Virus record (IMG/VR): IMGVR_UViG_3300025108_000038
DNA: 64,000 nucleotides
Origin: an uncultured virus (IMG/VR IMGVR_UViG_3300025108_000038)
Lineage: Duplodnaviria; Heunggongvirae; Uroviricota; Caudoviricetes; Crassvirales
Strand: one strand, 5' to 3'
Positions 24,399-40,374 of the stretch are shown here, one piece after another. The stretch's first letter is position 1, and the number at the start of each line of letters is the position of its first letter. The notes below the pieces were generated by a model. That model was not told where the DNA came from and searched no databases. It was given only the letters and a program-made list of their open reading frames with translations. Position numbers and translations under genes: made by a program.

Positions 24399-24709
24399 TT
24401 TATATGTAAGTTTAAATTAATTAAATCGAGATAATCATCAGAACTTATTATTTTTAGATCCGACAACATTAAAAAAGATCCTTGTGTTCTTATTATTTCT
24501 AATGCAAAAAATATATTTTCATTTTTATATTTTACCGTACCTCCCAATATTTGAGATATATAATCATTTACTGGTAGATATAAAACTTTAGAGTCAATGT
24601 ATTCAGAAATAACTAAAGACAATCCCAGCTCAAGGGAGTCTAAAGCTTCAAGATATTCCTCATAAACATCATATCCATCATCCTTTATATACTTCAGTTT
24701 TAAACCCAT
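24395..24709 (-). CDS. Hypothetical protein
   Basis: 104 aa in the operon. Confidence 0.55.
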   Translation of the reverse strand: MGLKLKYIKDDGYDVYEEYLEALDSLELGLSLVISEYIDSKVLYLPVNDYISQILGGTVKYKNENIFFALEIIRTQGSFLMLSDLKIISSDDYLDLINLNLHIK

Positions 24710-24917
24710 ATTTTTTTAATTCTTTTATTCTAAACTTTTGAAGATCAGACAATACTCCTTTTGGTTTTTTTATTTCAGAGAAAAGAACATCACATCCTGG
24801 AGGAAGCGCTATCAAATCAGGTATACCATTTTTATTTGTAAGTTTCAGTTTTATAACATAATACCCTTCTCCTTCAAGTTCTTTTATTCTTTTGTTCTGT
24901 ATCTGTTGTTCCGTCAT
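24678..24917 (-). CDS. VRR-NUC family nuclease
   Basis: MTEQQIQ...GIPDLI...FSEIKKPKG.LSDLQ; start moved to ATG 24917. Confidence 0.8.
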   Translation of the reverse strand: MTEQQIQNKRIKELEGEGYYVIKLKLTNKNGIPDLIALPPGCDVLFSEIKKPKGVLSDLQKFRIKELKKYGFKTEVYKG

Positions 24918-25098
24918 ATCCGTTTTGTTTCCAGTCAATCCAAAAACCAATTCCTACCATTATATGTAAAACAATAGACAAAGCGTATTCATATAGGTCA
25001 TGCCAGGTTGCAAAGTGTAAATGTACGTGTCCAATTACCCAAAATGGTATTGCCATTTGTTGACTGTACCAAATTAAAAAAAATTTTATAAACTTCAT
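24874..25098 (-). CDS. Small membrane protein
   Basis: Two hydrophobic, His-containing segments. Confidence 0.5.
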   Translation of the reverse strand: MKFIKFFLIWYSQQMAIPFWVIGHVHLHFATWHDLYEYALSIVLHIMVGIGFWIDWKQNGYDGTTDTEQKNKRT

Positions 25099-26324: not shown

Positions 26325-26325
26325 A

Positions 26326-28737
26326 TTAAAAATCTAATCTTCCGTTTTCTTCTAACTCGTGCTTACTTCTAAACCTTATCCATCTACCTTGTGAATCTCT
26401 ATCTTCTTCAGGTTTGCAATTGTATTTGTATACAGAATAAGCAGTAAGCCATTTATAAAATTTAGTTCGTGAAACAGTAAACTTAGACTTTGGAGCAAAG
26501 TCTGGATTGTCTTCAACAAAATCTAAATATAGGTCACTCTTGTATACCCTTCCAGCTTGCTTTAATTTTTCGTGTTGTGATCCTCCACCTATTTCTCCGC
26601 TCCATTCTAAAAATTCGTGACAAGTTTCTGCTGATAATTGTCTTGTCTTTAGGTTTATAAATTTTGATTTTATAAGGCCATGATTCATATAAGTTTGAAC
26701 ACAACTTATCATATAATTATCAAATTGACACCATTCATCATCATCCCATTCTCCAAACATAAGTTTTCCAAATTCCATAAGTGGTGTAAAATCTTTGGTG
26801 TAGTGCTGGGCTAATTCTAATTCCCATTTTCTTCTTTCAAAAGATGATCCTTTACCTTTGATAGCGTAATTTGTTGTTATAGAGACTTTAGGTGATTTAC
26901 TAAATGGAATTTTTATAGCATCTTTATTTTTCTTTTCCAGGACTAAGCCTTCTGTAACAACAGAAAATAATCTTTCAAAGTCAAAATGCTTCTTCACATC
27001 ATCAAAACATAATATTTGAGTATCAACACTAACAGTTTGATAAGCAAAGCTTTTTTCAAAATTAAACGACTTACCATCTATAAATACTAATTTTTTCATA
27101 TGACTCAAGGCGTTCATAAAAATACCCTTACCTGTTCCTCCTTCTGGATTATCTGATATTACCTCATCATTTAATATTACTGCTGGACAGTAGGATAAGT
27201 TTTTCCAGGCATGAAGTAAATACCCTATTGTTGACTTCATAGAATTAACTCTGTTATCATCTTTACCACAAATGTTTTTAATAAATTGCTGGTAATCACA
27301 ACTTTCTGCATCACATTCATTAAAAACTCTATCTATTACGTGATCTTTCCATACGTAACCACCTAAATCTAAGTAGTCGATTTTTATAAGTTGATTGTTA
27401 GTTATTTTTACTGCACAATTTTTATAATACAGATAGGCACTATCTTTTGTATCTTCTATAAAATAAACCGCAATAGATGACAGAAGGGTTAAAAACTCTT
27501 CTCTAAAATACCTGGTATGTTCAGCAAAATAATTATAAACACTTAGATCGTCTACTTCTAATAGATAGTTTAAAATAAAATCTTTTATTTCTTTCTCAGA
27601 AGTGTGATCTATTAAGTTGTTAGTTACTCTTACAAAAACATAATTCTTACTTCCTTCAGGGTTAAACTTATAAAATCCATTCTCCTCCAGGAATTGCTTG
27701 AAAAGTATGTGAACTATTTTTATAACTCCTTTGTCGTTTTTTGTCCAAAACTGATTGTTTGCATTTTCTTCATCTAAACGAGCCAACACATTGTCTATGG
27801 TAGCGACCTCAATATCTGACTCTTGCAATTGAGATCTAATTTCTTTTTTTGGTACACCTCTTTTTAACTTCATTCTTAAGTTGTTAAGGCGATCTTCATC
27901 TTCATAATACTTTGTACCAAAATTATGCTTATTAGAATAAGCACTTCGTATTGTCCTTCTTATCTCTTCTCTATCAAAATTTTTTGTTTGATAATTATTT
28001 AATACTGACTCAGCTAAAGATTGGTATACTCCAAAATCATTTAAAGCGGCAGCCAAAACATAAGCATTATTGTTTCTTTCTCCTTCATTCATGGGAAATT
28101 TCTTTTCCCACCATTTAACTAATATTTCTACTATTTTATTTTCATCCGTTACTGGTATTGTTGGTATATCAGTATTCTTATTTACTTCGTTGTATTCTTG
28201 TTCTTGTATGCTATCCCATAAACTTGACTGAGCGTTTATGTGAATTAATGGATCATAAGACTCATAGCAGACTCTTGAGACGTTTTTACAAGACTTATCG
28301 AAGTAATCGCTATCAAAATGTTTTTGAAGGCTTAGGAAGTAGCTTTTATGATTCTCTGTAATTGGAGGTATTTTAACTAAAACTTTTAAGCCATTACCAC
28401 TTGGAGAAATAAATACTGCATAAACATATTTATCTTTTGAAAGCTTTTCTTTTTCTTGTAATAAATCTTTACTTGACTTGTACCCATCAAAGTCCAAGCA
28501 TATCAAACCACTATGCTCTTTTAAAGCTTTGTCATTTCGTTTTGTAAATTTTCCACTAAAACAAATTGCTGGTAGTTTTTGCTTTAATATGTTCCTATTA
28601 TTCTTATCTTTTTCGGCACGTATTTTTTTAACTATATCCTTGGAAGATCCATCTTGTATTCTTTTTAACACCAGGTTTATATTTCTGTAGAAGGGTTGTG
28701 ATGTCTGTTTTATGTCTTTAAATATGGTTATGTCCAT
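26326..28737 (-). CDS. Primase-helicase (VirE-N/BT4734-like primase, PriCT, P-loop helicase)
   Basis: CLDFD, FISPSGNGLK, DKSCKNVSRVCYES, GERNN, Walker A GGTGKG, FDD Walker B. Confidence 0.85.
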   Translation of the reverse strand: MDITIFKDIKQTSQPFYRNINLVLKRIQDGSSKDIVKKIRAEKDKNNRNILKQKLPAICFSGKFTKRNDKALKEHSGLICLDFDGYKSSKDLLQEKEKLSKDKYVYAVFISPSGNGLKVLVKIPPITENHKSYFLSLQKHFDSDYFDKSCKNVSRVCYESYDPLIHINAQSSLWDSIQEQEYNEVNKNTDIPTIPVTDENKIVEILVKWWEKKFPMNEGERNNNAYVLAAALNDFGVYQSLAESVLNNYQTKNFDREEIRRTIRSAYSNKHNFGTKYYEDEDRLNNLRMKLKRGVPKKEIRSQLQESDIEVATIDNVLARLDEENANNQFWTKNDKGVIKIVHILFKQFLEENGFYKFNPEGSKNYVFVRVTNNLIDHTSEKEIKDFILNYLLEVDDLSVYNYFAEHTRYFREEFLTLLSSIAVYFIEDTKDSAYLYYKNCAVKITNNQLIKIDYLDLGGYVWKDHVIDRVFNECDAESCDYQQFIKNICGKDDNRVNSMKSTIGYLLHAWKNLSYCPAVILNDEVISDNPEGGTGKGIFMNALSHMKKLVFIDGKSFNFEKSFAYQTVSVDTQILCFDDVKKHFDFERLFSVVTEGLVLEKKNKDAIKIPFSKSPKVSITTNYAIKGKGSSFERRKWELELAQHYTKDFTPLMEFGKLMFGEWDDDEWCQFDNYMISCVQTYMNHGLIKSKFINLKTRQLSAETCHEFLEWSGEIGGGSQHEKLKQAGRVYKSDLYLDFVEDNPDFAPKSKFTVSRTKFYKWLTAYSVYKYNCKPEEDRDSQGRWIRFRSKHELEENGRLDF

Positions 28738-28915
28738 TTTATGTTGATTTTATGTTGATTTTATTTTACTTAACTATCTCTTTATTAGTTACTTATATAT
28801 TTTAATGTCGAAAATGTCAATAATATATAATAATAATGTAGATAAAGAAGTAGTTGTTTTATATTTTTTTCTATAGATCTCTTTGTAGAGTTAAATTTCT
28901 GTCATTCGACACGAG
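28738..28915. other. Candidate replication origin (AT-rich, ATGTYGA repeats and inverse TCGACA)
   Basis: Non-coding, directly upstream of the primase-helicase; motifs shared with 38461-38655. Confidence 0.45.
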
Positions 28916-28924
28916 ACAAAAGAT

Positions 28925-28953
28925 AAAAAAAGGGAGCGTAAACTCCCTATTTT
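28925..28953 (-). terminator. Intrinsic terminator, possibly bidirectional
   Basis: AGGGAG/CTCCCT stem flanked by an A-run and a T-rich tract. Confidence 0.75.
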
Positions 28954-28969
28954 ATTCAGTTAGGATTAA

Positions 28970-29248
28970 TTAAAAAGGAAGCCCATCTCCTTCGTCCACT
29001 GCATTAGCTACAACCTTCTGCTCTGTCTTCTGCTCTGGTTTAAATGTATCAATGGCTACATAATGTGTTTTACCATATTGATCTGTTTCTCTTTTTTTCT
29101 GTACAATAAGTTTTACATACTTTTTGTTGTTGTACTCAAAAATCCAATCTTTTGGAAGATCTGACAAGCAAACAGATACTGCTACCTGGTCTCCGTCAAA
29201 TTTTTCTTTTCCACTTCCTACGTAAATTTTGTCTTTTACTTCACTCAT
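28970..29248 (-). CDS. Putative single-stranded DNA-binding protein
   Basis: Beta-rich 92 aa with acidic DEGDGLPF tail; downstream of recombination genes. Confidence 0.55.
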   Translation of the reverse strand: MSEVKDKIYVGSGKEKFDGDQVAVSVCLSDLPKDWIFEYNNKKYVKLIVQKKRETDQYGKTHYVAIDTFKPEQKTEQKVVANAVDEGDGLPF

Positions 29249-29432
29249 GTTTATTAATTTTAATTGTTTGCTCCATATAGCTAATTACAGATAACATAAC
29301 TTCAGTTTTATGCTCTGCACTATTACAAGACATTGGAACTTTTATCCATATAATAGTATTTTTCTTTGTTCTTTTTAGGTTTTTATAAAGTCTGCCTATG
29401 TATGTATGTATGTATGTCTTCAGTCGCTTCAT
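29241..29432 (-). CDS. Hypothetical protein
   Basis: 63 aa; overlaps the end of the exonuclease; start uncertain. Confidence 0.4.
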   Translation of the reverse strand: MKRLKTYIHTYIGRLYKNLKRTKKNTIIWIKVPMSCNSAEHKTEVMLSVISYMEQTIKINKHE

Positions 29433-30126
29433 TACTAAAATATTTTTGATACACTTCTACCGCTTGCTCAACTTTCTCCTGGCCTCCTTGTATAAATGAT
29501 TGAGAACATTCAAATATACCAAGTCTTGCAGTCCTTTTATCTATTACCAGGAATATTAATGGCTTTCCAAATAACCTTTGATATATGTAGGCTTGACTAT
29601 CGTAATTATAGGTTTTTGCACTATACATAAATTTATCGATATCCGAACTTGTTTTAATGTCAATAATTAAATTACTTTTATGATTTAAGATATCAGCCTT
29701 TCCCTTCCAATCTAAATTCATTATTTTTTGAATTTCTGGAACTTCGTAATCATTATTCTCTTCATAGATAAGATCAAACATTTCCATATTAGAAGTCATC
29801 TTAGTACATAAAAAATCTAATTGCTCTCTTTCTTTTGTAAGCAAAAGCATTTCCTCATTTGATTCAGCCAAAGCCTCTTTATATTTAGTAGTAGATCTTG
29901 TTGATGCTTCTACCTCCTGGAAGTCTCCTATTTTATGTGGCTCTAATATTTTGGTGTGGAAATATCTACCTTCAAGCATTGGCTTTGTAAATTCATTACT
30001 TACTCTAAACTGAGTAGGATTCTTTAATAACTTTCCTATGTCTGAGTTTGATAGATATTGCTGACCAAAATCTCCATAATATTTAGCATCGTCTTCCAGG
30101 TTTTTAAGTATGTCTGCTTTAGTCAT
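29383..30126 (-). CDS. PD-(D/E)XK RecE-like exonuclease (DUF3799-like)
   Basis: YLSNSDI, GRYFHTKILEP, KGKAD...IIDIKT, YDSQAYIY. Confidence 0.8.
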   Translation of the reverse strand: MTKADILKNLEDDAKYYGDFGQQYLSNSDIGKLLKNPTQFRVSNEFTKPMLEGRYFHTKILEPHKIGDFQEVEASTRSTTKYKEALAESNEEMLLLTKEREQLDFLCTKMTSNMEMFDLIYEENNDYEVPEIQKIMNLDWKGKADILNHKSNLIIDIKTSSDIDKFMYSAKTYNYDSQAYIYQRLFGKPLIFLVIDKRTARLGIFECSQSFIQGGQEKVEQAVEVYQKYFSNEATEDIHTYIHRQTL

Positions 30127-30739
30127 TTTTAAAGGATTTAGCTAATTCTTTTTTCACTACTGCTTTTATACTATACTTAGACTTAAGATTTTTTACTATC
30201 TTCTCTAAACCTAATTCTTTATTTTTTGATATGTAAGTTAAAACTTTAGCCCAATTCATATCTCCAATCTCTAATGTGATTAAAGTTTCAGTCTTTTGTT
30301 TTGTTGTGGTCTGTGTCTTTTTATGTTCCTGGATCTCTGGAATTATTAAAGTATCTTCATTTGCATAAAGACTTAAACCAAGGCCATGCATAGCAATAGC
30401 TTTTGCAGTTGCTCTTTGAATTGCAGTGTTAACGTCCATAGAAGTTATTTTGTCAACAGTAATAGAGTTATGCCTAAAATCTTTAATAGGTAAATAATCA
30501 ATATGCTCTATATCATTCACTATTATACCTACTTTTACATAGCCAGTCATTCCGTCAGAAAACCAATTCAAACCTGTTTCTTGCGCCTCATACACTATAC
30601 GTTGCGCTCCTGGGTTTGATTGTTTTAAATAGTTCCAGGCTATTGCCCAGGATAAATAATTAAAATTTCCTTTCTTTTTTACGTGCTTGGAAACATCTTT
30701 TGCAACCAATTCTTTAAAGTAATTTTCATTTTTGCTCAT
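30119..30739 (-). CDS. Sak/Rad52-like single-strand annealing protein (DUF1071-like)
   Basis: YLSWAIAW...VNTAIQRATAKAIAMHGLGLSLYANED. Confidence 0.85.
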   Translation of the reverse strand: MSKNENYFKELVAKDVSKHVKKKGNFNYLSWAIAWNYLKQSNPGAQRIVYEAQETGLNWFSDGMTGYVKVGIIVNDIEHIDYLPIKDFRHNSITVDKITSMDVNTAIQRATAKAIAMHGLGLSLYANEDTLIIPEIQEHKKTQTTTKQKTETLITLEIGDMNWAKVLTYISKNKELGLEKIVKNLKSKYSIKAVVKKELAKSFKND

Positions 30740-31139
30740 TTGTATTTAATTTTAGATTTAAATCTTTTATTTTGTTTGCATACTTTAATAGTATGGCTTC
30801 TCTTTTATTTTTTAAGTTCTGTATATGCTTATCGTTCTTTCGAGTGTTTACCTCTGTCTTTATCTTTGACTCAATTAGTTTTAATTTAAATAAGCAATTT
30901 TCAATGTTTAATTTTAAACAACCTATTATCCAACCATACTCATAAAAGAAATCATAATGATCACTTTCAATTACCTTGTAATAATCTCCATTTCTGTTTA
31001 GATCTAATATTTCAATCCTATCACTAAACTTTTGAATCTTTATACCTTTACTTAAAACACTTTCACCATAAGGCATATCTTCTTGAATGCTATTACTACA
31101 TGATTTAGCTTGAATAAAAACTTGGTTTAAATTATACAT
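30726..31139 (-). CDS. Hypothetical protein
   Basis: 137 aa in the operon. Confidence 0.6.
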   Translation of the reverse strand: MYNLNQVFIQAKSCSNSIQEDMPYGESVLSKGIKIQKFSDRIEILDLNRNGDYYKVIESDHYDFFYEYGWIIGCLKLNIENCLFKLKLIESKIKTEVNTRKNDKHIQNLKNKREAILLKYANKIKDLNLKLNTNEQK

Positions 31140-31434
31140 TATTATCTTTTAATATCTCCTGGACTAAATCATTAACATCGGTATCATTACTTATTAGATC
31201 TTTTGCTTTATTATATCCATGTATTATAGTTGAATGGGTTACCTTAAAATCATAGGTTTCCAAAAACCTTTGTATGTAAGATATTCTTATTGGTCTTTCC
31301 ATACATAAATAATATAGCATTTGCCTGGCATCTACTATATCTCCTCGTCTTGTAGAGGTAAACATTTCATCTAAAGTTAGATGAAACTTTTTTGCTACCG
31401 CAGTAGCATAGTCATCAAATATTTGTTTCTTCAT
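31132..31434 (-). CDS. Stand-alone DnaA domain-IV-like DNA-binding protein
   Basis: RRGDIVDARQMLYYLC...HSTIIHG matches DnaA R...IV.ARQIAMYL...DHTTV.H. Confidence 0.75.
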   Translation of the reverse strand: MKKQIFDDYATAVAKKFHLTLDEMFTSTRRGDIVDARQMLYYLCMERPIRISYIQRFLETYDFKVTHSTIIHGYNKAKDLISNDTDVNDLVQEILKDNNV

Positions 31435-31700
31435 TATTGATTAATTTTATTTAATTCAAATTGTAAATGATTTATAGCCTTCTGAAGATCTTCATTAGGC
31501 GTGTTATGTTTTCTGTATGCTCTTAAAATATAAGTACAAGCAGTTCCTAAATTATAATTCAAATCAAAATTATTCACAACATCTATTGCGGTGTAATTAT
31601 TTTTACCATCATAATAAGAAGGAGTGTCTACTTTAATAGTTTTATCTTCGGTACACTGAAGTTCGTCTGTCCTGGTTTCTGTATAATTCATATTAACCAT
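31434..31700 (-). CDS. DUF3310-like protein
   Basis: PSYY...AIDV...YNLG...YILRA..K...EDLQKA; probable start at 31691. Confidence 0.7.
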   Translation of the reverse strand: MVNMNYTETRTDELQCTEDKTIKVDTPSYYDGKNNYTAIDVVNNFDLNYNLGTACTYILRAYRKHNTPNEDLQKAINHLQFELNKINQ

Positions 31701-31795
31701 TTTATAAATTTATATAATTGAATAGCAATTAAGCAAGAGATCGCTCCAATGAATGACCATGCTACAAGTTTCATATTTTTATCTTCTCTTCCCAT
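31688..31795 (-). CDS. 35-aa single-pass membrane peptide (MGREDKNMKLVAWSFIGAISCLIAIQLYKFIKWLI)
   Basis: Manually translated; ATGA-coupled to the next gene. Confidence 0.5.
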   Translation of the reverse strand: MGREDKNMKLVAWSFIGAISCLIAIQLYKFIKWLI

Positions 31796-31797
31796 AA

Positions 31798-31986
31798 CTA
31801 AATACCTAAAGGATAATCGTCATCTTCCATAGTAGTAACCTCCTGGCTTGTATCCAAAGGATCTTCTTCATCATCATTAATGTTATTAATAATGTTTGAA
31901 CACATAGCCATGTGTATAGCGGTGTTCCTTGCTTGTGGGTTTTGAGGGTTGAATGACTCAAATAGCATTCGTAGTGTATCGTCCAT
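31798..31986 (-). CDS. Small acidic hypothetical protein
   Basis: 62 aa; first gene after the promoter at 32019. Confidence 0.55.
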   Translation of the reverse strand: MDDTLRMLFESFNPQNPQARNTAIHMAMCSNIINNINDDEEDPLDTSQEVTTMEDDDYPLGI

Positions 31987-32018
31987 AATTTGATTAAATT
32001 TTAGTTAAACTTAGTTCA

Positions 32019-32026
32019 CAAATATA
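32019..32026 (-). promoter_or_regulatory. -7 promoter element TATATTTG
   Basis: Intergenic TAnnTTTG on the minus strand. Confidence 0.7.
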
Positions 32027-32051
32027 GTGTAAAACAATTATAAATACTAAT

Positions 32052-32456
32052 TTAATCGTATATATTTACTTGTAAATTTATTTCCAGGTGTTCGTAATAC
32101 CTTCCTATTTCAGAGTGAACAACCTGGTCTTCTCCTATGCAAATTTGAAAAGCCTCCAGGCCTCTCTCTTCGAGATCATATAAAAAATCTTCAATTATTT
32201 TTACATCTGGATAAGGGCTATACCATTTCAGATCAAAGATACTTGTGTATATCATCATTCCGTCTTTTGTTTCTTTTAAAAGGGAAAATAAATCTGGAAA
32301 AACAAAACGCCTTTCAGAGTTTTGAAGTTTAAACAATCTTACCTTTTCTGTTTTTGGTATTCCTATTATTACTTGACTACTATATCCCATTGTTTTGCAT
32401 TTTATCAGCCCATATACAAGCCTGGTTATAAATTCCGTTATCATATTCTTGAACAA
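32052..32456 (-). CDS. Hypothetical early protein
   Basis: ORF; true start probably at the internal MGYSSQV. Confidence 0.55.
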   Translation of the reverse strand: MFKNMITEFITRLVYGLIKCKTMGYSSQVIIGIPKTEKVRLFKLQNSERRFVFPDLFSLLKETKDGMMIYTSIFDLKWYSPYPDVKIIEDFLYDLEERGLEAFQICIGEDQVVHSEIGRYYEHLEINLQVNIYD

Positions 32457-32589
32457 AGTCTACAAAGTCATTAAACCAGGATATTTGAGGTTTAATTTTG
32501 TTGATCTCGTTTGTTGCTTCTATAAAATCTCCCATTAGTTCGGTTATCTTATTAAAGTCTCTGTCTTTTTGTGTTTCCGCGTATGCCAT
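32380..32589 (-). CDS. Hypothetical early protein
   Basis: 69 aa, tightly packed. Confidence 0.55.
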   Translation of the reverse strand: MAYAETQKDRDFNKITELMGDFIEATNEINKIKPQISWFNDFVDFVQEYDNGIYNQACIWADKMQNNGI

Positions 32590-32594
32590 AATTA

Positions 32595-32819
32595 TTAATA
32601 TTTATTTTCTTGAGCGTATTCCCATACCTTGGTATTGAGATCATCGTTTACCCAATCCCAAAAAAAGTCTGTTATATCTACTCCGTTTAATTCTACATTT
32701 TCTATTTCTAAATCAGCTTCAGGAGGGTACTCATTATCTCCGTCATTCCAATAAAATTCGTAATTTATATCTAATTCATAGTTATCTTCAACTATTGAGT
32801 ATGTTCCTTTTGTTTTCAT
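32595..32819 (-). CDS. Acidic hypothetical early protein
   Basis: 74 aa; YPPEA..EIENVELNGVDIT. Confidence 0.6.
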   Translation of the reverse strand: MKTKGTYSIVEDNYELDINYEFYWNDGDNEYPPEADLEIENVELNGVDITDFFWDWVNDDLNTKVWEYAQENKY

Positions 32820-33109
32820 AAGTGGCCTCCGATTCTTAATTTTTCACATTCATACCTATACTCTGATTCTGACTCTACTTCGTTCATACCTTCCAAATCA
32901 TCTATTCCATTTCCAAGAACAAATTCTGATTCATTCATTTTATGCTCAAGATCGTCTATCCAATCCTCTTCCTTATAAATTATAAATTCATCTATACTTG
33001 TGTATTTACCATTGTCTATTCGATAATGATCAAATTCATTTTCATCAATATCTGTTTCAATTTCAGCAAATTTATGGTAGATCCGTCTTACTTGTATTTT
33101 TACCTTCAT
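32816..33109 (-). CDS. Acidic hypothetical early protein
   Basis: 97 aa. Confidence 0.6.
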   Translation of the reverse strand: MKVKIQVRRIYHKFAEIETDIDENEFDHYRIDNGKYTSIDEFIIYKEEDWIDDLEHKMNESEFVLGNGIDDLEGMNEVESESEYRYECEKLRIGGHL

Positions 33110-33111
33110 TA

Positions 33112-33777
33112 TTAATATTTTTTAGTTCTTTCAATTAAATTTAAAACATCGTGTATTTCTACTCCTTGGTATTTGCAATTATTTGTTATGAATTGCTTTA
33201 TAGGTAATTGCTTTGGATCATCAAAAAAGTCTCCTAATTTTTTACCGCTTTTAATTTGAGCATCAGCTAAACGCTTAATTACTCTTTTCACATACCAATT
33301 ACTTGTCCAATAGATACCGCCTTCTCCGTCTGTAATTTTTACATTGTCTCCAGGTTTGTTGGTAATATTTTTATCAGCCTTCCAGGTATTTTTCTTTTTA
33401 TCATAACCTATTATATGGCATAGAATATCCCTTAATTGTTTTACAGACAAATACTCAAATGTATTTTCGTAATGGTCTAATATTTCTTTTTCGCATCTGT
33501 CTTCAATACTTTTTATTAATTGATCAAACTTTGCGTGTCCATACAATTCTCTGTAAAAGTCTCTAAATTTTGTGTATTGAGTTTTTTCTCCAAACATTGT
33601 AAAGTTTGTATCATAATCTAAATCTTCAATGTCCAGGAATTTTACTTCTCCAAATTCCTGGTTTGTTAGGCCTCCGTTTACATGAGTCTCAAAGTCTAAA
33701 CCTTTTCCATTTGTGGTGTTAAACGTAAACCCAAATCTTACATAATCTGTGTGCTTCTGTGTTTTTAATAGTTTCAT
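33112..33777 (-). CDS. Hypothetical early protein
   Basis: 221 aa. Confidence 0.65.
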   Translation of the reverse strand: MKLLKTQKHTDYVRFGFTFNTTNGKGLDFETHVNGGLTNQEFGEVKFLDIEDLDYDTNFTMFGEKTQYTKFRDFYRELYGHAKFDQLIKSIEDRCEKEILDHYENTFEYLSVKQLRDILCHIIGYDKKKNTWKADKNITNKPGDNVKITDGEGGIYWTSNWYVKRVIKRLADAQIKSGKKLGDFFDDPKQLPIKQFITNNCKYQGVEIHDVLNLIERTKKY

Positions 33778-33799
33778 TTTATTTGATTTTATTTATTAA

Positions 33800-34201
33800 T
33801 TAATATGGTTTTAAATGTTCTGTGTTGTTCTCTCCGTTAAATCTTTCCTGGAATAATAATTTTTCTGTGTGATCTTCAATTATTCTTTCTTTATCCTCCA
33901 GGGTTATTCCTTCGTACTGATCAATTAAGCCTTCTAAATAGGCCTCGTTTTCCATTATGTCGCTACAATCTTTTGTATATGGATAATATGGAGCGATATA
34001 CGTACCGCCTCCGTTTCCGTCATTCCATATAACAACATTCATTTGATTTGTTTGCGCTTCATATCCAAGGCCTCTTCGAGTATTAAAATACCTTACGCTT
34101 CTTACTTTCAATTTTTCCGCAAATGCTTTTTTATCTAATGCGTTTCTTAATAACCTATCTGCTTCCAGGCTTACTATTTTTTCTTGTTCTTGCTCGCTCA
34201 T
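33800..34201 (-). CDS. Hypothetical early protein
   Basis: 133 aa; WNDGNGGGTY motif. Confidence 0.65.
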   Translation of the reverse strand: MSEQEQEKIVSLEADRLLRNALDKKAFAEKLKVRSVRYFNTRRGLGYEAQTNQMNVVIWNDGNGGGTYIAPYYPYTKDCSDIMENEAYLEGLIDQYEGITLEDKERIIEDHTEKLLFQERFNGENNTEHLKPY

Positions 34202-34203
34202 AA

Positions 34204-34485
34204 TTATAAATTTTTTCTTATTGCTTTATACTGCTCTACTTCTGATAATATTTGATACTTATAATGATTTGTACATATTAACAAGGCTATCTCTCTGATC
34301 CAATCCAGGTTACTCATTCTACAATTATCAACATCAAGTTCATAGAATTGTATTAAGTCTTCCCTTATATCAGCATACTCTATGTTAATGGTATCCTTTT
34401 CTTTACTCCTGGAAAGTTTATTTATCTCTCCTTGCATTGCCTCAATTCTGTGGCCTAAAAATTTAATGGTTTCGTTTTTGCTCAT
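34204..34485 (-). CDS. Hypothetical early protein
   Basis: 93 aa. Confidence 0.6.
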   Translation of the reverse strand: MSKNETIKFLGHRIEAMQGEINKLSRSKEKDTINIEYADIREDLIQFYELDVDNCRMSNLDWIREIALLICTNHYKYQILSEVEQYKAIRKNL

Positions 34486-34490
34486 AACTT

Positions 34491-34931
34491 TTAATTATAT
34501 ATTAATGATCCGTTTTCTGTAAATTCATATTCATTAGCCTCACAAAGATCCGTTAAACCTTCATCAGAATAAACATATTCAGTCTCCTGGTGTAATTGTT
34601 TCAATACATTATTTAGAGAATTGTTTTTCAATCCTTCAATTATTTCTTGATCCCAAAATGTACCTGTTAATTCACACTTATCCGCTTCCAGGCTATCCAA
34701 GGCCAATTGATCGTACTCACTAAACTTTATGTACTCGCCTCGGCATGGGCTTTGGCTGATTGAATAATCGTTTCTTCCGCCTATTTCCTGGCTTAATTTT
34801 TTTATACTATCAACTAACTCGTACACTGAAAATTCATTCAAGTCGTGAAAATTTTCTCTGATCCATTTAAAGCATAGTTCTTTGCCTGGGTGTTCGTGTA
34901 TCTGATAAACTTTTGTTTTAATTACTCTCAT
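34491..34931 (-). CDS. Hypothetical early protein
   Basis: 146 aa; EANEYEFTENG C-terminus. Confidence 0.65.
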   Translation of the reverse strand: MRVIKTKVYQIHEHPGKELCFKWIRENFHDLNEFSVYELVDSIKKLSQEIGGRNDYSISQSPCRGEYIKFSEYDQLALDSLEADKCELTGTFWDQEIIEGLKNNSLNNVLKQLHQETEYVYSDEGLTDLCEANEYEFTENGSLIYN

Positions 34932-34961
34932 TTTTTTTATATTTAATTAGATTAATTTTCT

Positions 34962-34992
34962 GCAATATAGTTATTATAAACATCTTGTGCAA
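34962..34992 (-). promoter_or_regulatory. Probable early promoter (TTG-20 nt-TATATTGC)
   Basis: Variant -7 box plus -33 TTG; resembles the 37652-37681 promoter. Confidence 0.5.
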
Positions 34993-35008
34993 GTTTTTTA
35001 AACTTTCT

Positions 35009-35269
35009 TTAATTTGAATTACCTAACCATTGGTGATATATGTAGTCATATTCTACATTCATTATTTCGGCAAGCGCTTCGAAAATTCTTTCCCTAACCA
35101 GGCTATCGCAAACGCCTATTAAGTCGTATATTTCTTGATAGTTGTCAAGGCATTCAAAAACCATTTTGAAATTTATATTGCTATCGATTTCCTGGCCTAA
35201 TTCATCTGTTGAATATTTGGCCAGGTAAAACGCTTTTACGTTGCTTGTCGCTCTTAATTTAAACTTCAT
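35009..35269 (-). CDS. Hypothetical early protein
   Basis: 86 aa. Confidence 0.6.
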   Translation of the reverse strand: MKFKLRATSNVKAFYLAKYSTDELGQEIDSNINFKMVFECLDNYQEIYDLIGVCDSLVRERIFEALAEIMNVEYDYIYHQWLGNSN

Positions 35270-35453
35270 CGGTATCCCATTTAGTTACTGGAAATGTTCC
35301 CTTGTATCCTAATTCAAGCGCTCTATCAAAACACATTCTTAATAAAAAAGGCCTACTCCAATTTTGATCCATTATAATTTTATTTATTTCCTTTAGATCT
35401 GATTTGTTAATATACTCTTGCGTGTATTTTACTCTTCGTTTATATGCTCTCAT
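35259..35453 (-). CDS. Hypothetical early protein
   Basis: 64 aa. Confidence 0.55.
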   Translation of the reverse strand: MRAYKRRVKYTQEYINKSDLKEINKIIMDQNWSRPFLLRMCFDRALELGYKGTFPVTKWDTDEV

Positions 35454-35728
35454 AACTTATTTATTTTACTTTCGATTATTACTTGTTCGTTTTGTTCACT
35501 TATGTTTATTAAATTATTTATTTCTTCGTGTATTTCGTCTTGTATCTCGAAGGGATAATTTCCTTCTTTATACTTTATAAATTCATTATTTATTAAAAAA
35601 TCTACAATTCTAATTGAGACATCTCGCGTGTCATCGTTTGTTATTGTTTCTATATTCATAACCTCTCTGTTACCACTTGTCATTAATTCTTTATTACCTA
35701 TTTTGATAATGTTAGACTTATACTCCAT
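35450..35728 (-). CDS. Hypothetical early protein
   Basis: 92 aa; N-terminus (MEYKSNIIKIGNK) resembles that of the next ORF (MKYTNQFIKIGNK). Confidence 0.6.
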   Translation of the reverse strand: MEYKSNIIKIGNKELMTSGNREVMNIETITNDDTRDVSIRIVDFLINNEFIKYKEGNYPFEIQDEIHEEINNLINISEQNEQVIIESKINKL

Positions 35729-35731
35729 AAC

Positions 35732-35998
35732 TTATTTATTTACATTAATAAAATAATTTGCGTACTTTCCTCGTTCACTGCAACAATTATAATACTCGTA
35801 CTCGTTTACCATTGTTTCAAACTTTTCAGAAGATCCGTTATTTAATAACATTGGGCTTGTCCAGGAATTATTTAACATCATATTGCAAGCGTTTAAATAA
35901 AGATCATGGCCTTTATCATATACTTTTTTAGCCTCTGTTTTATTTATTTGCTTTACTTGTTTGTTACCTATTTTAATAAATTGATTTGTATACTTCAT
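35732..35998 (-). CDS. Hypothetical early protein
   Basis: 88 aa; NEYEYYNC.SERGKY. Confidence 0.65.
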   Translation of the reverse strand: MKYTNQFIKIGNKQVKQINKTEAKKVYDKGHDLYLNACNMMLNNSWTSPMLLNNGSSEKFETMVNEYEYYNCCSERGKYANYFINVNK

Positions 35999-36012
35999 AA
36001 CTTTGGTATTAT

Positions 36013-36037
36013 GGGAGCGTTTCCGCTCCCTGGTTTA
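36013..36037 (-). repeat. GAAA-tetraloop intergenic cassette, copy 1
   Basis: TAAACCA-GGGAGCG-GAAA-CGCTCCC on the minus strand. Confidence 0.9.
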
Positions 36038-36039
36038 TA

Positions 36040-36204
36040 CTACTTAATTAAATTTCTAATCGCTGAAACTTCTATTGTTCCAAATTTATCGTGTACCTTA
36101 CATAAATACTCTTCGGCCTCAATAAATCGCGCTTCTGTTGTCGCGTTTTCGTATTGATTGCGGAATTTTATTAACTCCGTTATCTCTGTTTTTATCTTCG
36201 GCAT
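36040..36204 (-). CDS. Hypothetical early protein (MPKIKTEI...)
   Basis: Start moved to ATG 36204, overlapping the end of the upstream lipoprotein. Confidence 0.5.
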   Translation of the reverse strand: MPKIKTEITELIKFRNQYENATTEARFIEAEEYLCKVHDKFGTIEVSAIRNLIK

Positions 36205-36356
36205 CTTGTATATTTTTGGCGTTTTGCATTCCAACATTTTTTAGTATACATTTTCTTTTTATACTTTGACGTTTTACATTGCCTGGAGGCGCTACAACTT
36301 GTAAGCGTTGGCGTTGCAAATATTAAACAAATTACTATTGTGATTATTTTTTTCAT
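36192..36356 (-). CDS. Small cationic lipoprotein (54 aa)
   Basis: Manually translated: MKKIITIVICLIFATPTLTS-C-SASRQCKTSKYKKKMYTKKCWNAKRQKYTRCRR; signal peptide with LTSC lipobox. Confidence 0.7.
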   Translation of the reverse strand: MKKIITIVICLIFATPTLTSCSASRQCKTSKYKKKMYTKKCWNAKRQKYTRCRR

Positions 36357-36358
36357 AT

Positions 36359-36625
36359 CTATTGAAATTTAAATTCTCTTATTATTCTTGTTTGGTTTGT
36401 TGGGCTTGTGCTTGTTAACTTTACTACGTTGTAGCCTCTACAAGTATACGAGCGCTCCGCGTGTTCTTTGCCTCCTGCTCTTCTGAAGGCCTTAAGCGTT
36501 TCATCTTTAGTTATTAAATTATATTCGCGCTCTGTGATTTCTTCAACAAATGTAACACCAGGTAAAAACGTGGTTTTTGTACTTGGGTTTTTTTCTTGCT
36601 TTGTTCTTGTCATTGTGATAGTCAT
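36359..36625 (-). CDS. Hypothetical early protein
   Basis: 88 aa. Confidence 0.6.
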   Translation of the reverse strand: MTITMTRTKQEKNPSTKTTFLPGVTFVEEITEREYNLITKDETLKAFRRAGGKEHAERSYTCRGYNVVKLTSTSPTNQTRIIREFKFQ

Positions 36626-36641
36626 TTTTTTGCGGTATTGT

Positions 36642-36666
36642 GGGAGCGTTTCCGCTCCCTGGTTTA
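36642..36666 (-). repeat. GAAA-tetraloop intergenic cassette, copy 2
   Basis: Identical to copy 1. Confidence 0.9.
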
Positions 36667-36669
36667 TAA

Positions 36670-36915
36670 TTATATTGATTCAAAAATTATTTCTTCGGTA
36701 TCTGTATTAAAAAGTATTTGAAATACTTCTTCCCATTCTTCGGAAAGGTTTAAAACTATAATATCATCTTCGCAGTAATGAGATAAACAAACTTTATTTG
36801 TTAGCTCTAAATCTTCGCCATAACTTAAGGCGCTGAGGTCTTCAATCGTTACCAAATTTTTAGCCTCTAAAATTGCGCTTCTTTGGTCTTCTGTAAGTGT
36901 TTCAAATGTGGTCAT
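36670..36915 (-). CDS. Very acidic early protein
   Basis: 81 aa, Glu/Asp-rich. Confidence 0.6.
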   Translation of the reverse strand: MTTFETLTEDQRSAILEAKNLVTIEDLSALSYGEDLELTNKVCLSHYCEDDIIVLNLSEEWEEVFQILFNTDTEEIIFESI

Positions 36916-36929
36916 AAAATTAAATTTGT

Positions 36930-36954
36930 GGGAGCGTTTCCGCTCCCTGGTTTA
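36930..36954 (-). repeat. GAAA-tetraloop intergenic cassette, copy 3
   Basis: Identical to copy 1. Confidence 0.9.
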
Positions 36955-36957
36955 GAT

Positions 36958-37344
36958 CTATTTATTAAGTTTTGCATTTAGTTTTAAAATGTGGTACGCC
37001 ATAAAATTGAAATAGTTTTCAACTATTCGTTTTGTGGTGTTTTTTTCGTTTGGGTAGGTGTCAACTTCCTGGAGGCGTTTTGCAAGTTTTACAATATCAT
37101 CGTTATAAAATGGAATATTTAAAACCGAAGGAAGGCCAGCAAGCCAATGAGCAAACCGCGTTTGTTCGTTTGGGTGTCGTGCCTGGTTGAATCTGTGGTT
37201 AAATTCTGATTCATAACAAGACATAACAAAGGCCAATTTTTCCGCGTGTGTTGTTGCTTCTGTTGTGTGGTCGTCTGTATTGATTGCATCAAGCAAATAA
37301 TTTTGAATATTTGAAAGATATTTTTTTGAGTTTGTGCGTAACAT
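36958..37344 (-). CDS. Hypothetical early protein
   Basis: 128 aa; HWLAGLPS motif. Confidence 0.65.
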   Translation of the reverse strand: MLRTNSKKYLSNIQNYLLDAINTDDHTTEATTHAEKLAFVMSCYESEFNHRFNQARHPNEQTRFAHWLAGLPSVLNIPFYNDDIVKLAKRLQEVDTYPNEKNTTKRIVENYFNFMAYHILKLNAKLNK

Positions 37345-37358
37345 AGTTTTTTAATTGT

Positions 37359-37383
37359 GGGCGCATTTCTGCGCCCTGGTTTA
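37359..37383 (-). repeat. GAAA-tetraloop intergenic cassette, copy 4 (compensatory variant)
   Basis: TAAACCA-GGGCGCA-GAAA-TGCGCCC. Confidence 0.9.
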
Positions 37384-37385
37384 TA

Positions 37386-37616
37386 TTATTTTAATAAGTT
37401 TAAAAGCATTTTTAAGGTTTTAATTTCGTCTTCTAAATTACTGACAAGGTCAAAAACTCCGTTCGCTTCTAATTTTTCCGCGGTAAAATCTTCAGTTATT
37501 GCTTTTTCTGTTGGGTTTCCGAAATCAACTAAATTTTTAACCTCTTGCGCGTCTATTTTAATATTGTTTAACTGTCTTAAAACTTCGCTTTTTACTTTTA
37601 CTTGTATTGAATGCAT
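37386..37616 (-). CDS. First early gene, hypothetical
   Basis: 76 aa, directly after the promoter. Confidence 0.6.
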   Translation of the reverse strand: MHSIQVKVKSEVLRQLNNIKIDAQEVKNLVDFGNPTEKAITEDFTAEKLEANGVFDLVSNLEDEIKTLKMLLNLLK

Positions 37617-37651
37617 AATGTTAATTTATGGGTTAATGTTTATATTTTGTT

Positions 37652-37681
37652 CAAAGATAGTTTAATATTTAAGTTATACAA
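37652..37681 (-). promoter_or_regulatory. Main leftward (early) promoter
   Basis: TTG-19 nt-TATCTTTG, Bacteroidota -33/-7 consensus. Confidence 0.75.
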
Positions 37682-37869
37682 GCGTTTTTTTAAATTATAT
37701 ACTTGTTACAAATATCTTGAGCGTGTAACGTGCTGATAATGTGCAAGTTATAAACGTAATTTATAATCAATATAAATAAGAAACATTTAATATTTTAAGC
37801 GTTCGCGGAGGTATAACCTTCAATGTCTTGAAGTGTAAAAAAGATCTAATGTTAAAAGTTTAACAAAGG

Positions 37870-38012
37870 GATCTTCTCTTTCCTGGAGCAATGGAGCGCG
37901 CGAGCGGTGGAGAGCGTGCCAGGAGTAACCGCGGAAGGGCGAAACGTGGCGAGGCGGTACGGCCTCGGCGCGTGTTCCTGGTGCTGTGCTGTTGCTCGTA
38001 GCAAAACGCCAA
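37870..38012. other. GC-rich non-coding structured island at the strand switch
   Basis: Abruptly GC-rich; hairpins CGAGGC/GCCTCG and TTGCT/AGCAA; three CCWGG sites. Confidence 0.6.
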
Positions 38013-38443: not shown

Positions 38444-38674
38444 GTATAATATGTATAATAATCGACACAACAATGTTGTATTAAAAAAAAATCGGCATTA
38501 ACTAACTATCTCTTTTTCAATACTTTATATTACTATTTTTATTAAATGTCGAAAATGTCGAAAAAAATACTATAATAATAATAAAAAAATAGTAGTAGTA
38601 GTAGTAATATATATATAAGTAAGTAGGAGCAATATTGTTTGACATTCGTCATTGTCTATTTAAAATATATTTTG

Positions 38675-38702: not shown

Positions 38703-40331
38703 ATGAGCAACTACATACCAAAGGATCTTGAGTTCGATCAAGTCGGAAGAAACAAATTAATTAGCGGAATAACAAAAATATCTAAAGCTGTAAAAAGCAC
38801 TTTAGGCCCACGCGGAAAAACTGTTTTAATAGAATCTTCTAATCACACGCAAGGAATTACAATTACAAAAGATGGAGTTACTGTTGCGGAATCTATATCA
38901 TTAATAGATCCTGTAGAGAACTTGGCTATTACTATGATGAAAGATGCGGCTCGAAGAACTGCTAATTCTGCTGGTGATGGAACTACTACTGCAATTGTTT
39001 TGACTGAAGCTTTGGTAAAGGCTGGTGAAAAGTTTTTACAACCAGAACATAATGTAACTGATGTTGTTCGGAATATAAAAAAGACTGCTGACAATGTTGT
39101 TTCTAAATTAAAAAAACAGAGTCGCAAAGTTACTTCTTCAACATTAAAAGATGTTGCTACTATTTCTTCAAACAATGATCCAGAGTTAGGTAAGATTATT
39201 TCAGAGGCTTATAAAAAAGTTGGAGTCAATGGAATAGTTACAGTTGAGAGTTCTCAAAACCATGAGACTTATGCAACAGTTACAAACGGAATAAAAGTTG
39301 ATAGAGGTTATACTTCTAATTTATTTATCACTAATCAAAAAAATGACGAAGCAGTATTAGAGGATGCTTTAGTTTTAGTTTGTGATCAAGAGATAAGTAA
39401 TATACTTCAAATAGAAAATATATTAAAACCAGTAATACAACAAAACAAGAAACTTCTCATCATTGGGGCTTGCTCGCCTAATGTTGTGAATACCCTGGCA
39501 GCAAACGTGGTGCGTAACGGACTTAAGCTATGTAATATTATACCTCCAAACTTTGGATATAAACAACACGAGCTTATGCAAGACATCGCGTTGTCTGTTG
39601 GGGCAAAATACTTTTCAGAAAAAACAGGTGATAATTTAAATATGATTACAATGGATGACTTAGGTCATGCTGATAAAATTATATCTGGTAAAAATCAAAC
39701 TGTTATAATAAAAAGTGATCAGTTAACTGAAGAGATACAAAATAGAATTAAAGAATTAAAAGAACAGCAAAAAAATACAGATATAGTTTCAGATAGAGAG
39801 TTTATCAATGAGCGTATCGCAAGTTTATCAGGTTCTATTGGAGCTATTTATGTTGGAGGTAATTCTGATGTAGAGCAAAAAGAAAAATATGACAGGGTAG
39901 AAGATGCTGTATGTGCTGTTCGTAGTGCTTTAGAGGAAGGGATTGTAAAGGGCGGAGGTTCTTCTTTATTTGCTATTGGAGAACACCTTGAGGTTCAGAG
40001 GTTTAAGGAAAAGCCTGAAGATGAGTTTGATGACAAAGATGTTGCAGATGTTATTTTAGGACACGCAATGTGCAAGCCTTTTTATCAAATATTAGATAAT
40101 GCAGGTATTAATGATGAAGGTGCTTCTGCAATTCTTTCTAAATCATGGGCCTTGCCAAAAGACCATGGTTATGATGTTAAAAACGAAAAGTATGGAGATA
40201 TGTTTAAAATGGGAGTCATTGATCCTTTAAAAGTAACTCGTTTAGCTTTATTAAATGCGGTAAGTGTAGCTACAACAATACTTAGCACTAACGCTATAAT
40301 TACTCACGCAAGAAAAGTAGATGATCAATAA
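38703..40331 (+). CDS. groEL: Chaperonin GroEL (phage-encoded)
   Basis: TLGPRG, ITKDGVTVA, AGDGTTTA, DRVEDA, EEGIV.GGG, GVIDPLKV; no GGM tail. Confidence 0.97.
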   Translation: MSNYIPKDLEFDQVGRNKLISGITKISKAVKSTLGPRGKTVLIESSNHTQGITITKDGVTVAESISLIDPVENLAITMMKDAARRTANSAGDGTTTAIVLTEALVKAGEKFLQPEHNVTDVVRNIKKTADNVVSKLKKQSRKVTSSTLKDVATISSNNDPELGKIISEAYKKVGVNGIVTVESSQNHETYATVTNGIKVDRGYTSNLFITNQKNDEAVLEDALVLVCDQEISNILQIENILKPVIQQNKKLLIIGACSPNVVNTLAANVVRNGLKLCNIIPPNFGYKQHELMQDIALSVGAKYFSEKTGDNLNMITMDDLGHADKIISGKNQTVIIKSDQLTEEIQNRIKELKEQQKNTDIVSDREFINERIASLSGSIGAIYVGGNSDVEQKEKYDRVEDAVCAVRSALEEGIVKGGGSSLFAIGEHLEVQRFKEKPEDEFDDKDVADVILGHAMCKPFYQILDNAGINDEGASAILSKSWALPKDHGYDVKNEKYGDMFKMGVIDPLKVTRLALLNAVSVATTILSTNAIITHARKVDDQ

Positions 40332-40374
40332 GGAATGGTTGTGGATGAACTACAGTAAATTAAAAAACAATACA

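What the first reader, a model, noticed from the sequence alone, without database searches (positions are those of the whole stretch)
29150..38000. Early arm is densely seeded with CCWGG sites written in through rare codons
Seen: by manual count there are about 46 CCWGG sites in 29.1-38.0 kb (about 5/kb; about 35 in 31.6-38.0 kb). That compares with about 8 in 38.0-46.1 kb and about 6 in 53-60 kb (about 1/kb, often plain Pro-Gly codons). In the early genes the sites arise from GC-ending synonymous codons atypical of this AT-rich genome: CAC CTG GAA (32084), GAC CAG GTT (32123), GGC CTG GAG (32156), TTC CTG GAC (33633), AAC CAG GAA (33657), TTC CAG GAA (33847), ACC CTG GAG (33898), AGC CTG GAA (34165). 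They span many unrelated ORFs, occur in all four hairpin cassettes and three times in the GC island, and stop abruptly near 38.0 kb. Established: CCWGG is the Dcm/EcoRII site and the self-mark methylated by class II DISARM; phages usually avoid such palindromes. No methyltransferase is recognisable in this genome. Inference: the motif is positively selected on the first-entering arm. It could be a host-methylated self-mark against defence, an array of binding or loading sites for a protein that protects or pulls in the DNA, or a recombination/repair hotspot. This is the best candidate here for an undescribed system.
Basis: partly seen in the sequence, partly recalled or inferred. Interest (0 to 1): 0.85.

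Follow-up and report, generated by a model that had tools for sequence, protein, structure and literature searches.

The report
Phage seeds five-base signal at end
A marine bacterial virus has written one five-letter DNA word into the genes at one end of its genome by choosing rare codons, its relatives do the same with variants of that word, and the likeliest reason is that a host enzyme that chews DNA ends is stopped by it.

Summary
The enrichment is real: 46 CCWGG sites in 29150-38000, 36 in early ORFs against 7.1 under synonymous-codon shuffles (top of all 5-mers), none in late genes. The window is an uncultured flavobacterial podovirus. The Dcm/DISARM reading does not hold as the general explanation: relatives seed the same arm with CCAGT, CCAGC or mixtures, so the selected word is CCAG+N with a lineage-specific last base. 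A CCAGN word ranks first in 17 of 52 relative clusters; the unfavoured variants are usually near zero, and two relatives purge CCAG. Sites turn over between species while density stays. In the non-coding GC-rich head at the presumed genome end the word piles up, 58:17 in one orientation, the one an end-entering AddAB/RecBCD would read as 5'-NCTGG-3'. Best guess (0.4): a Chi-like stop signal protecting first-entering DNA. Main rival (0.25): an allelic host modification/defence mark. Against Chi: no polarity inside the genes, no excess in 17 host-family samples, purging of sister words. Reader, host and physical end are not shown. The scan noted a different early-DNA motif lattice in another genome (e1-6091519); no lattice here.

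The parts
29185..37981 (.). Seeded arm: 46 CCWGG sites, 5.2 per kb, random spacing, all three frames, both orientations
23000..29149 (.). Weaker zone over primase, helicase and small replication genes: 9 sites, none Pro-Gly; 8 vs 1.2 expected in ORFs
37860..38005 (-). Non-coding GC-rich head (67% GC at 37901-38000) with three sites; in relatives the lineage's word piles up here in one orientation; presumed to lie just inside the genome end
   Evidence: end position inferred
36013..36033 (-). Hairpin cassette 1: CCAGG overlapping the foot of a 7-bp hairpin ahead of a start codon
36642..36662 (-). Hairpin cassette 2
36930..36950 (-). Hairpin cassette 3; the gene between cassettes 2 and 3 is deleted in contigs of two other runs
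37359..37379 (-). Hairpin cassette 4 (variant stem)
37652..37659 (-). TAnnTTTG match ahead of the first early gene, kept in relatives; Bacteroidota-type promoter element (consensus recalled; the pattern is not in excess genome-wide, 116 vs 102)
30119..30739 (-). Sak single-strand annealing protein
29383..30126 (-). Exonuclease VIII-like PD-(D/E)XK protein
31132..31434 (-). DnaA domain IV-like HTH protein; its helix does not co-vary with the fifth base
28771..28857 (+). AT-rich element at the inner border of the seeded arm, 73% like 38503-38602; possible replication origin (inference)
38503..38602 (+). Second copy of the AT-rich element, beyond the outer border
38703..40331 (+). groEL; marks the other side of the junction, which is not seeded

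Best explanation
The word is a Chi-like signal, 5'-NCTGG-3' (CCTGG in this lineage), read by the host's AddAB-type helicase-nuclease. Shown: the word is selected for density in the early arm, varies only in one base between lineages, and piles up in one orientation in the non-coding head. Inferred: the head is just inside the physical end and enters the cell first; AddAB loads on that end, meets the sites on the 3'-ended strand, stops degrading and hands the DNA to RecA or to the phage's Sak/exonuclease pair; sites in both orientations further in limit resection from internal cuts made before early anti-defence proteins act; the last base follows the host lineage's enzyme; relatives that block AddAB need no sites.
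For: Polar pile in the head: 58 forward to 17 reverse over 12 seeded clusters, 9.7 per kb, and 2:1 in the 550 nt on the other side; 57:22 over 13 clusters against 8.0:4.4 from local shuffles, while 15 unseeded clusters hold 13:8 of all four variants together; back-to-back copies in L140, L036, L355, G011. In the window 9 of 11 sites in 35901-38000 have this orientation. AddAB reads a 5-base, species-specific Chi on the 3'-ended strand (PMC4614115, passages); E. coli Chi begins GCTGG (10.1101/2021.07.08.451572, passages). Precedent for end-clustered Chi in phages, on both strands in P1 (same paper, section 12), and for phages that either pile up or avoid Chi (PMC3784561 passages; PMC12315714 passages). 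PF12705 matched 151 of 151 Flavobacteriaceae genomes; 2 of 2 such proteins tested match AddB models, below the curated cut-off. An unrelated Cellulophaga siphovirus, phi46:1, has CCAGC in excess (29 vs 11.0 on the coding strand, 10 vs 1.6 in one frame), which points to a host-side reader.
Against: Inside the genes both orientations are about equally enriched (CCAGT lineages 3.0x and 2.6x, CCAGC 3.3x and 2.8x; 37:36 and 43:40 in the next two bins), whereas Chi-rich lambdoids are strongly polar (20:3, 32:0). Part of the head polarity follows its C-rich strand (8.0:4.4), and 4 of the 12 clusters show none (G010 1:1, G008 0:2, L136 0:1, L183 3:3). No CCAGN word is in clear excess in 17 Flavobacteriaceae samples (O/E 0.31-1.41) and no consistent leading-strand skew in 6 genomes sampled at 160-200 kb each; the true hosts are unknown. 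The sister words are purged, in phi46:1 to 0-1 genome-wide, which looks like restriction avoidance and is not predicted by Chi. Of 10 cultured Bacteroidota phages examined, whole or in part, none seeds an early arm. No Chi activity is shown for flavobacterial AddB; its fold prediction failed.
Confidence: 0.4

Rival explanations
1. An allelic family of host modification/defence systems recognises CCAG plus a variable fifth base. A phage purges the alleles of foreign hosts from the DNA that enters first and piles up the allele that its own host marks, because marked sites switch the defence off (missing-self sensing, by methylation or phosphorothioate).
For: One variant up, sister variants near zero: window CCAGG 41/8.2 but CCAGT 2/8.7 and CCAGC 1/3.4; G010 CCAGT 37/11.6, others 0-2. 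CCAG is absent from MW202828 (0/37.6 early, 4/165 late) and from the arm of L407 (0/54). Cultured phages purge different subsets: phi46:1 CCAGD, phi38:1 CCAGS, Larrie CCAGR, Panino CCWGG. The arm also lacks other restriction-like words (GCWGC, CATCC, GAACC 0; AGCT 8 vs 53), as described for first-injected DNA (PMC12455610, passages). Phosphorothioate systems modify only part of their sites (PMC12914056, passages) and CCAG pile-ups are mentioned in gut PT-seq (10.1101/2024.06.03.597111, passage).
Against: No enzyme family with CCAG+N specificity was found in the papers searched. DUF4007 (SspB/BrxP) in 11 of 251 and DrmB in 6 of 251 Flavobacteriales genomes: rare for a trait in 21 of 52 clusters. 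13 of 15 marine Bacteroidetes MAGs had no detected methylated motif (PMC8919816 supplement rows; many are incomplete and 5mC is poorly seen). In class 1 DISARM more unmethylated sites mean more restriction (10.1101/2021.12.28.474362, passages). CCA and CAG in other contexts are not enriched. In L355 and L351 CCAGG is neither seeded nor purged (6/4.6, 5/3.6).
Confidence: 0.25
2. A phage-encoded protein (an ejected virion protein or an early product) binds the word to coat, pull in or silence the early arm, and its specificity drifts with its sites.
For: Seeding of an early arm was seen only in this family. The motif is built into the repeated cassettes ahead of early genes. The 2309-aa late protein is mosaic between lineages.
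Against: No gene family tracks seeding over 14 genomes. The two DnaA-like HTH proteins and the 154-aa regulator keep the same helix across G, C, T, mixed and unseeded classes (by eye). Seeded and unseeded states interleave on the primase tree. No periodicity. phi46:1, unrelated, shows a similar one-up, three-purged pattern. No polymerase or methylase motif in the 2309-aa protein.
Confidence: 0.15
3. The sites are specifically Dcm/EcoRII/class 2 DISARM self-marks.
For: The window's word is exactly CCWGG; class 2 DISARM methylates CCWGG; m4C CCWGG occurs in other marine viruses.
Against: Sister and more distant lineages use non-palindromic CCAGT and CCAGC in the same way; DrmB 6 of 251, EcoRII-C 2 of 201.
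Confidence: 0.04
4. A mutation or repair bias (very-short-patch repair) or channelling of codons by avoidance of other words produces the excess without selection for the word.
For: CTAG is absent genome-wide; several single-step differences are CCAAG versus CCAGG; weaker excesses such as CATC are probably compensation for avoided words (my inference).
Against: CCAAG is not depleted (10/12); many differences between species need 2-4 changes; CCAGT and CCAGC cannot arise by this repair; rare CTG codons are used almost only in the motif (11/14 early vs 1/22 late); tandem piles in non-coding DNA.
Confidence: 0.04

Closest known systems
Chi sites clustered near phage genome ends (P1; lambdoid LLS; Pseudomonas MD8; lambdoids lacking a RecBCD inhibitor)
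   Same: A short word selected in a phage, concentrated near an end, off the preferred reading frame, present in some members of a family and avoided in others.
   Different: Five bases, 5 per kb, polar only in the terminal head; host phylum with no Chi found in the papers searched; last base changes between lineages; sister words purged; function untested.
Bacillus subtilis AddAB Chi (AGCGG)
   Same: Five-base length, read on the 3'-ended strand; AddB-like genes in the presumed host family.
   Different: Other sequence; no excess or skew of NCTGG seen in sampled host-family chromosomes.
Restriction-site avoidance in first-injected DNA (Murciavirus, T5 first-step transfer region)
   Same: Selection on site content acts on the leading region only; the arm lacks many extra words.
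   Different: That work describes loss of sites; here one word is gained.
Dcm / EcoRII / class 2 DISARM CCWGG mark
   Same: Identical sequence in this lineage.
   Different: Relatives use non-palindromic variants; the systems are rare in the host order.
Elemovirus, Pervagoviridae (phi38:1), Maribacter phage Panino
   Same: Gene order, GroEL/GroES, terminase (46% to elemo) and portal (33-49%).
   Different: None seeds its early arm; phi38:1 and Panino purge CCWGG.

Membership tests
Chi (RecBCD/AddAB) sites | Attenuates the host helicase-nuclease at the site | not testable with these tools
   needs enzyme or plasmid assay
Chi (RecBCD/AddAB) sites | Polar, active orientation towards the entered end | tested here: inconclusive
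   58:17 in the head, no polarity beyond it; end position inferred
Chi (RecBCD/AddAB) sites | Clustered near a genome end | tested here: met
   change point near 38.0 kb; contig breaks of relatives near this junction; physical end not mapped
Chi (RecBCD/AddAB) sites | Over-represented and leading-strand skewed in the host chromosome | tested here: not met
   17 Flavobacteriaceae samples, 6 for skew; true hosts unknown, replichores assigned from local GC skew
Chi (RecBCD/AddAB) sites | Host has an AddAB/RecBCD with a Chi-scanning site | tested here: inconclusive
   AddB-like genes present; Chi-binding residues not assessable
Dcm / class 2 DISARM self-mark | Word is the palindrome CCWGG | tested here: inconclusive
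   met in this lineage, not met across the family
Dcm / class 2 DISARM self-mark | 5mC at the sites in virion DNA | not testable with these tools
   no modification data
Dcm / class 2 DISARM self-mark | System present in the host | tested here: inconclusive
   DrmB 6 of 251, EcoRII-C 2 of 201; host unknown
Ssp / BREX type 4 phosphorothioate mark | Word equals a known consensus (CCA, CAG, NCTC) | tested here: not met
   CCA and CAG in other contexts are not enriched; consensus list
Very-short-patch repair signature | Depletion of CTWGG precursors with gain of CCWGG | tested here: not met
   CCAAG 10 vs 12; feature recalled from my own knowledge
Phage-encoded DNA methyltransferase site | Methyltransferase gene in the genome | tested here: not met
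   C5 family over cut-off in 1 of 24 records (G016, unseeded)

The most novel reading that the evidence does not exclude
Bacteroidota carry an undescribed reader of CCAG+N whose fifth base differs between hosts. It spares DNA rich in the cognate word and attacks DNA with the sister words, so phages recode the first 9-15 kb of their genome as a host-specific password and must rewrite it on each host shift.
Probability: 0.25. Interest if true: 0.92.

Novelty: new variant of a known kind. Interest (0 to 1): 0.78.

Why it matters
If Chi-like, it names a testable candidate Chi for Bacteroidota, for which my searches found none in print, shows it varying by one base between hosts, and gives a way to sort uncultured marine phages by host. 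If it is a modification mark, it would be a missing-self defence that makes phages gain sites, not lose them. Either way it shows positive selection on a non-coding word written through synonymous codons over dozens of unrelated genes, with site turnover at constant density.

Tried and rejected
Phosphorothioate C*CAG in Bacteroides salyersiae: my recall was wrong; both versions of the paper give NCTC motifs. GATC and GGCC as co-seeded marks: GATC is only 32 vs 26 under codon shuffles, GGCC is limited to the window's own species. A longer consensus: flanks are uninformative. Periodic lattice as in e1-6091519: no clear peak; spacing random. A uniform genome-wide CCAG density: unseeded members have 1-2 per kb in the arm. 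Virion RNA polymerase or methylase in the 2309-aa protein: nothing; ESM Atlas gave no usable hit for its variable middle. Host assignment: MAG bins holding family contigs carry mixed labels; phage GroEL is only 38-43% like Flavobacteriales GroEL; no host named. Sequencing runs are contigs only and show no molecule ends. Fold of a flavobacterial AddB without alignment: pLDDT 35, unusable. The 5-mer methylation table in the supplement of PMC9516812 could not be read by column and may bear on the modification rival. A paper on Cellulophaga baltica host methylomes is not held. PMC13700133 and PMC12707154 passages added nothing. Sigma-70 promoter scan at chance level. Trees for the 154-aa protein and terminase were not obtained. 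More host chromosomes could not be sampled, so the host-skew test stays weak. Other words that top single clusters (CGCCG, ACGGC, GGCGA, z 6-7) were not followed up.
Full report
What the window is. A roughly 60-kb phage genome, 33% GC, with terminase, portal, virion proteins, GroEL/GroES, a primase, a helicase, Sak and an exonuclease VIII-like gene. Its closest named relatives are a freshwater podovirus record (MW202828, terminase 71.5%) and Flavobacterium, Maribacter and Cellulophaga podoviruses, so the host is probably a marine member of the Bacteroidota (inference; no host was identified). Positions 59989-64000 repeat 1-4045 at 78.6% and were left out of genome-wide tests. Genes from 23.0 to 37.7 kb run leftwards: small early genes, then recombination and replication genes.

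In the early ORFs CCWGG occurs 36 times against 7.1 +/- 1.7 under shuffles that keep protein and codon usage; it is the top 5-mer; late genes are at expectation, their sites being Pro-Gly. The early sites use frames and codons that are otherwise rare: 11 of 14 CTG codons lie in the motif, against 1 of 22 in late genes. Density is 5.2 per kb in 29150-38000, 1.5 in 23000-29149 and 0.8 right of 38000. Spacing is random with no periodicity.

It is under selection for density. In relatives at about 90% nucleotide identity 48 of 51, 45 of 52 and 36 of 41 window sites are kept, against 67-77% for other GC-rich 5-mers. In the sister species at 70-78% identity about half of the sites are elsewhere, yet the numbers match (L018: 11 shared, 16 and 16 private; L016: 9, 13, 13; L017: 15, 19, 11), and many differences need several changes (8 loci compared).

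The word is CCAG+N. In loci with Sak at 59-69% identity CCWGG is near zero in the same arm. Thirteen whole or near-whole relatives show why: G008, G009 and G010 seed CCAGT (26/9.0, 31/11.5, 37/11.6), G006 and G007 CCAGT and CCAGC (about twofold, weaker), G011 CCAG followed by A, C or T, G002 CCAGG (35/5.8), G012-G016 nothing, and MW202828 has no CCAG in the arm and 4 against 165 in late genes. Late genes of the seeded genomes are near expectation. I then pooled loci from four scans: 245 had a Sak match, 161 had at least 4 kb of early ORFs (84 dropped), and these fell into 52 clusters by shared 15-mers. A CCAGN word ranks first in 17 of 52; all 9 clusters with z of 8 or more are CCAGG (4), CCAGT (3) or CCAGC (2). 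By a looser rule (z at least 3, 1.7-fold) 21 are seeded, 29 are not and 2 have no CCAG. Clusters are related, so these are not independent events, but seeded and unseeded genomes interleave on a primase tree of 14 rows, and the window's sister clade (primase 84-86%) uses another last base.

Where the arm lies. Of five family contigs taken from genome bins, four break in or near groEL and begin in the early arm; one (G025:C10) begins at the GC-rich head itself, one begins inside the arm, and the fifth is joined to other DNA. The record of the more distant phage Gundel_1 marks a 322-bp terminal repeat ahead of its small early genes. This suggests a physical end near 38.0-38.6 kb; it is not mapped, and the runs available are contigs. 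That this end enters first is inferred from gene order and from the extra words missing only in the arm, which is the pattern reported for first-injected DNA (PMC12455610, abstract and passages).

Orientation. Within genes both orientations are enriched alike. In the non-coding head the lineage's own word is piled up, often back to back, mostly as CCAGN on the early coding strand: L157 7:0, L355 6:0, L140 6:2, L036 7:2, G007 7:1, G011 12:2, L369 7:2, window 2:1; but G010 1:1, G008 0:2, L136 0:1, L183 3:3; total 58:17 over 12 clusters (the weak cluster L199, 0:0, was left out). Local shuffles expect 8.0 and 4.4, so the excess is large in both directions and the polarity beyond base composition is moderate. 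For an enzyme entering from this end the 3'-ended strand then reads NCTGG from its 3' side, the geometry in which Chi acts (PMC4614115 passages; PMC12315714 passages).

Who reads it. Phage side: no gene family follows seeding, the HTH proteins do not co-vary, and the large late protein gave no usable match. Host side: an unrelated siphovirus of Cellulophaga baltica has CCAGC in excess and lacks the three sister words, and other cultured phages purge other subsets, so CCAG+N is a vocabulary of the hosts. AddB-like genes are in all Flavobacteriaceae searched (151 of 151), whereas DISARM DrmB (6 of 251), SspB/BrxP (11 of 251) and EcoRII (2 of 201) are rare. A conserved core with one variable base across a third or more of the family fits a conserved host enzyme better than patchy defence systems (inference).

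Verdict on mechanism. A Chi-like stop signal for AddAB explains the clustering at one end, the polar tandem pile, the five-base length, the likeness to the first five bases of E. coli Chi, and the coexistence of rich and poor relatives, all with precedent in enterobacterial phages (10.1101/2021.07.08.451572 passages and section 12; PMC3784561 passages; PMC12315714 passages). Defences that punish RecBCD-blocking phages could favour this route (PMC12407980 passages). It does not explain the lack of polarity in genes without an added assumption (internal cuts), nor the purge of sister words, and host-family chromosomes show no excess or skew. An allelic modification mark with missing-self sensing explains the purge but has no known enzyme, and marine Bacteroidetes MAGs mostly show no motifs (PMC8919816 passages and supplement rows). 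I give 0.40 to Chi-like, 0.25 to the mark, 0.15 to a phage protein, 0.04 each to Dcm/DISARM proper and to mutation bias, and leave the rest open. It should not be filed as Chi: one defining feature tested was not met and the activity is untested.

Novelty. Ten full-text searches returned no report of CCWGG or CCAG+N seeding in phage early regions and no Chi for Bacteroidota; the library lacks most subscription journals. All papers were seen as search listings and passages, plus the two sections and the supplement rows named above; none was read whole. The scan's notes hold nothing on this DNA or its look-alikes; one note on another genome describes a periodic AGC/GGC lattice in early DNA, a related theme with a different pattern, which I tested here only for periodicity.

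Noticed in passing
window 1-4045 and 59989-64000: The two ends are 78.6% alike over 4 kb, not identical: the contig runs on into a related genome, so the window is probably a chimeric wrap of a 60-kb genome.
   Followed up: partly
whole window: Extreme avoidance of restriction-like words: CTAG, CCGG, CCSGG, GGWCC, CGWCG, GAATTC, GGATCC, GGTACC, AGTACT, GAGCTC all zero, in a genome with no methyltransferase found.
   Followed up: partly
window 28900-38050: Words avoided only in the arm: GCAGC, CATCC, GAACC, CCCC zero; AGCT 8 vs 53; ACAGB, CCTGH low.
   Followed up: partly
window 35995-37401: Four hairpin cassettes ahead of the first early genes; the gene between two of them is missing in contigs of two other runs (joint 36667-36956), so they act as shuffling points.
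   Followed up: partly
intergenic spacers of L373, L391, L194, L036, L176, L073, L352: Recurrent CTGATGA...GAAA elements with flanking stems that look like hammerhead ribozyme cores (recalled consensus, not searched against Rfam); in CCAGT lineages a stem is made of the seeded word.
   Followed up: no
window 28771-28857 and 38503-38602: Two homologous AT-rich elements with ATGTC repeats bracket the seeded arm; similar repeats occur in several relatives.
   Followed up: partly
window 15871-22800: 2309-aa late protein, mosaic between lineages; most relatives have an HExxH motif that the window's and G002's copies lack.
   Followed up: partly
window 23874-24398 and 31132-31434: Two DnaA domain IV-like proteins, conserved through the family.
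   Followed up: partly
L444 (Cellulophaga phage phi46:1): CCAGG, CCAGT and CCAGA are absent or nearly so genome-wide while CCAGC is in excess.
   Followed up: partly
L317, L323-L324, L329 (G025, G027 contigs): More distant members show other GC-rich words in the arm: CGCCG 12/2.2, ACGGC 17/4.2, GGCGA 12/3.3 and 12/2.3.
   Followed up: no
L436-L437 (G164): A Flavobacteriaceae genome sample with CCAG at half of expectation, CCAGG and CCAGA at 0.31 (20 kb of ORFs only).
   Followed up: no
window 38703-40632 and 53793-54356: Phage GroEL, GroES and a second GroES-like gene.
   Followed up: no
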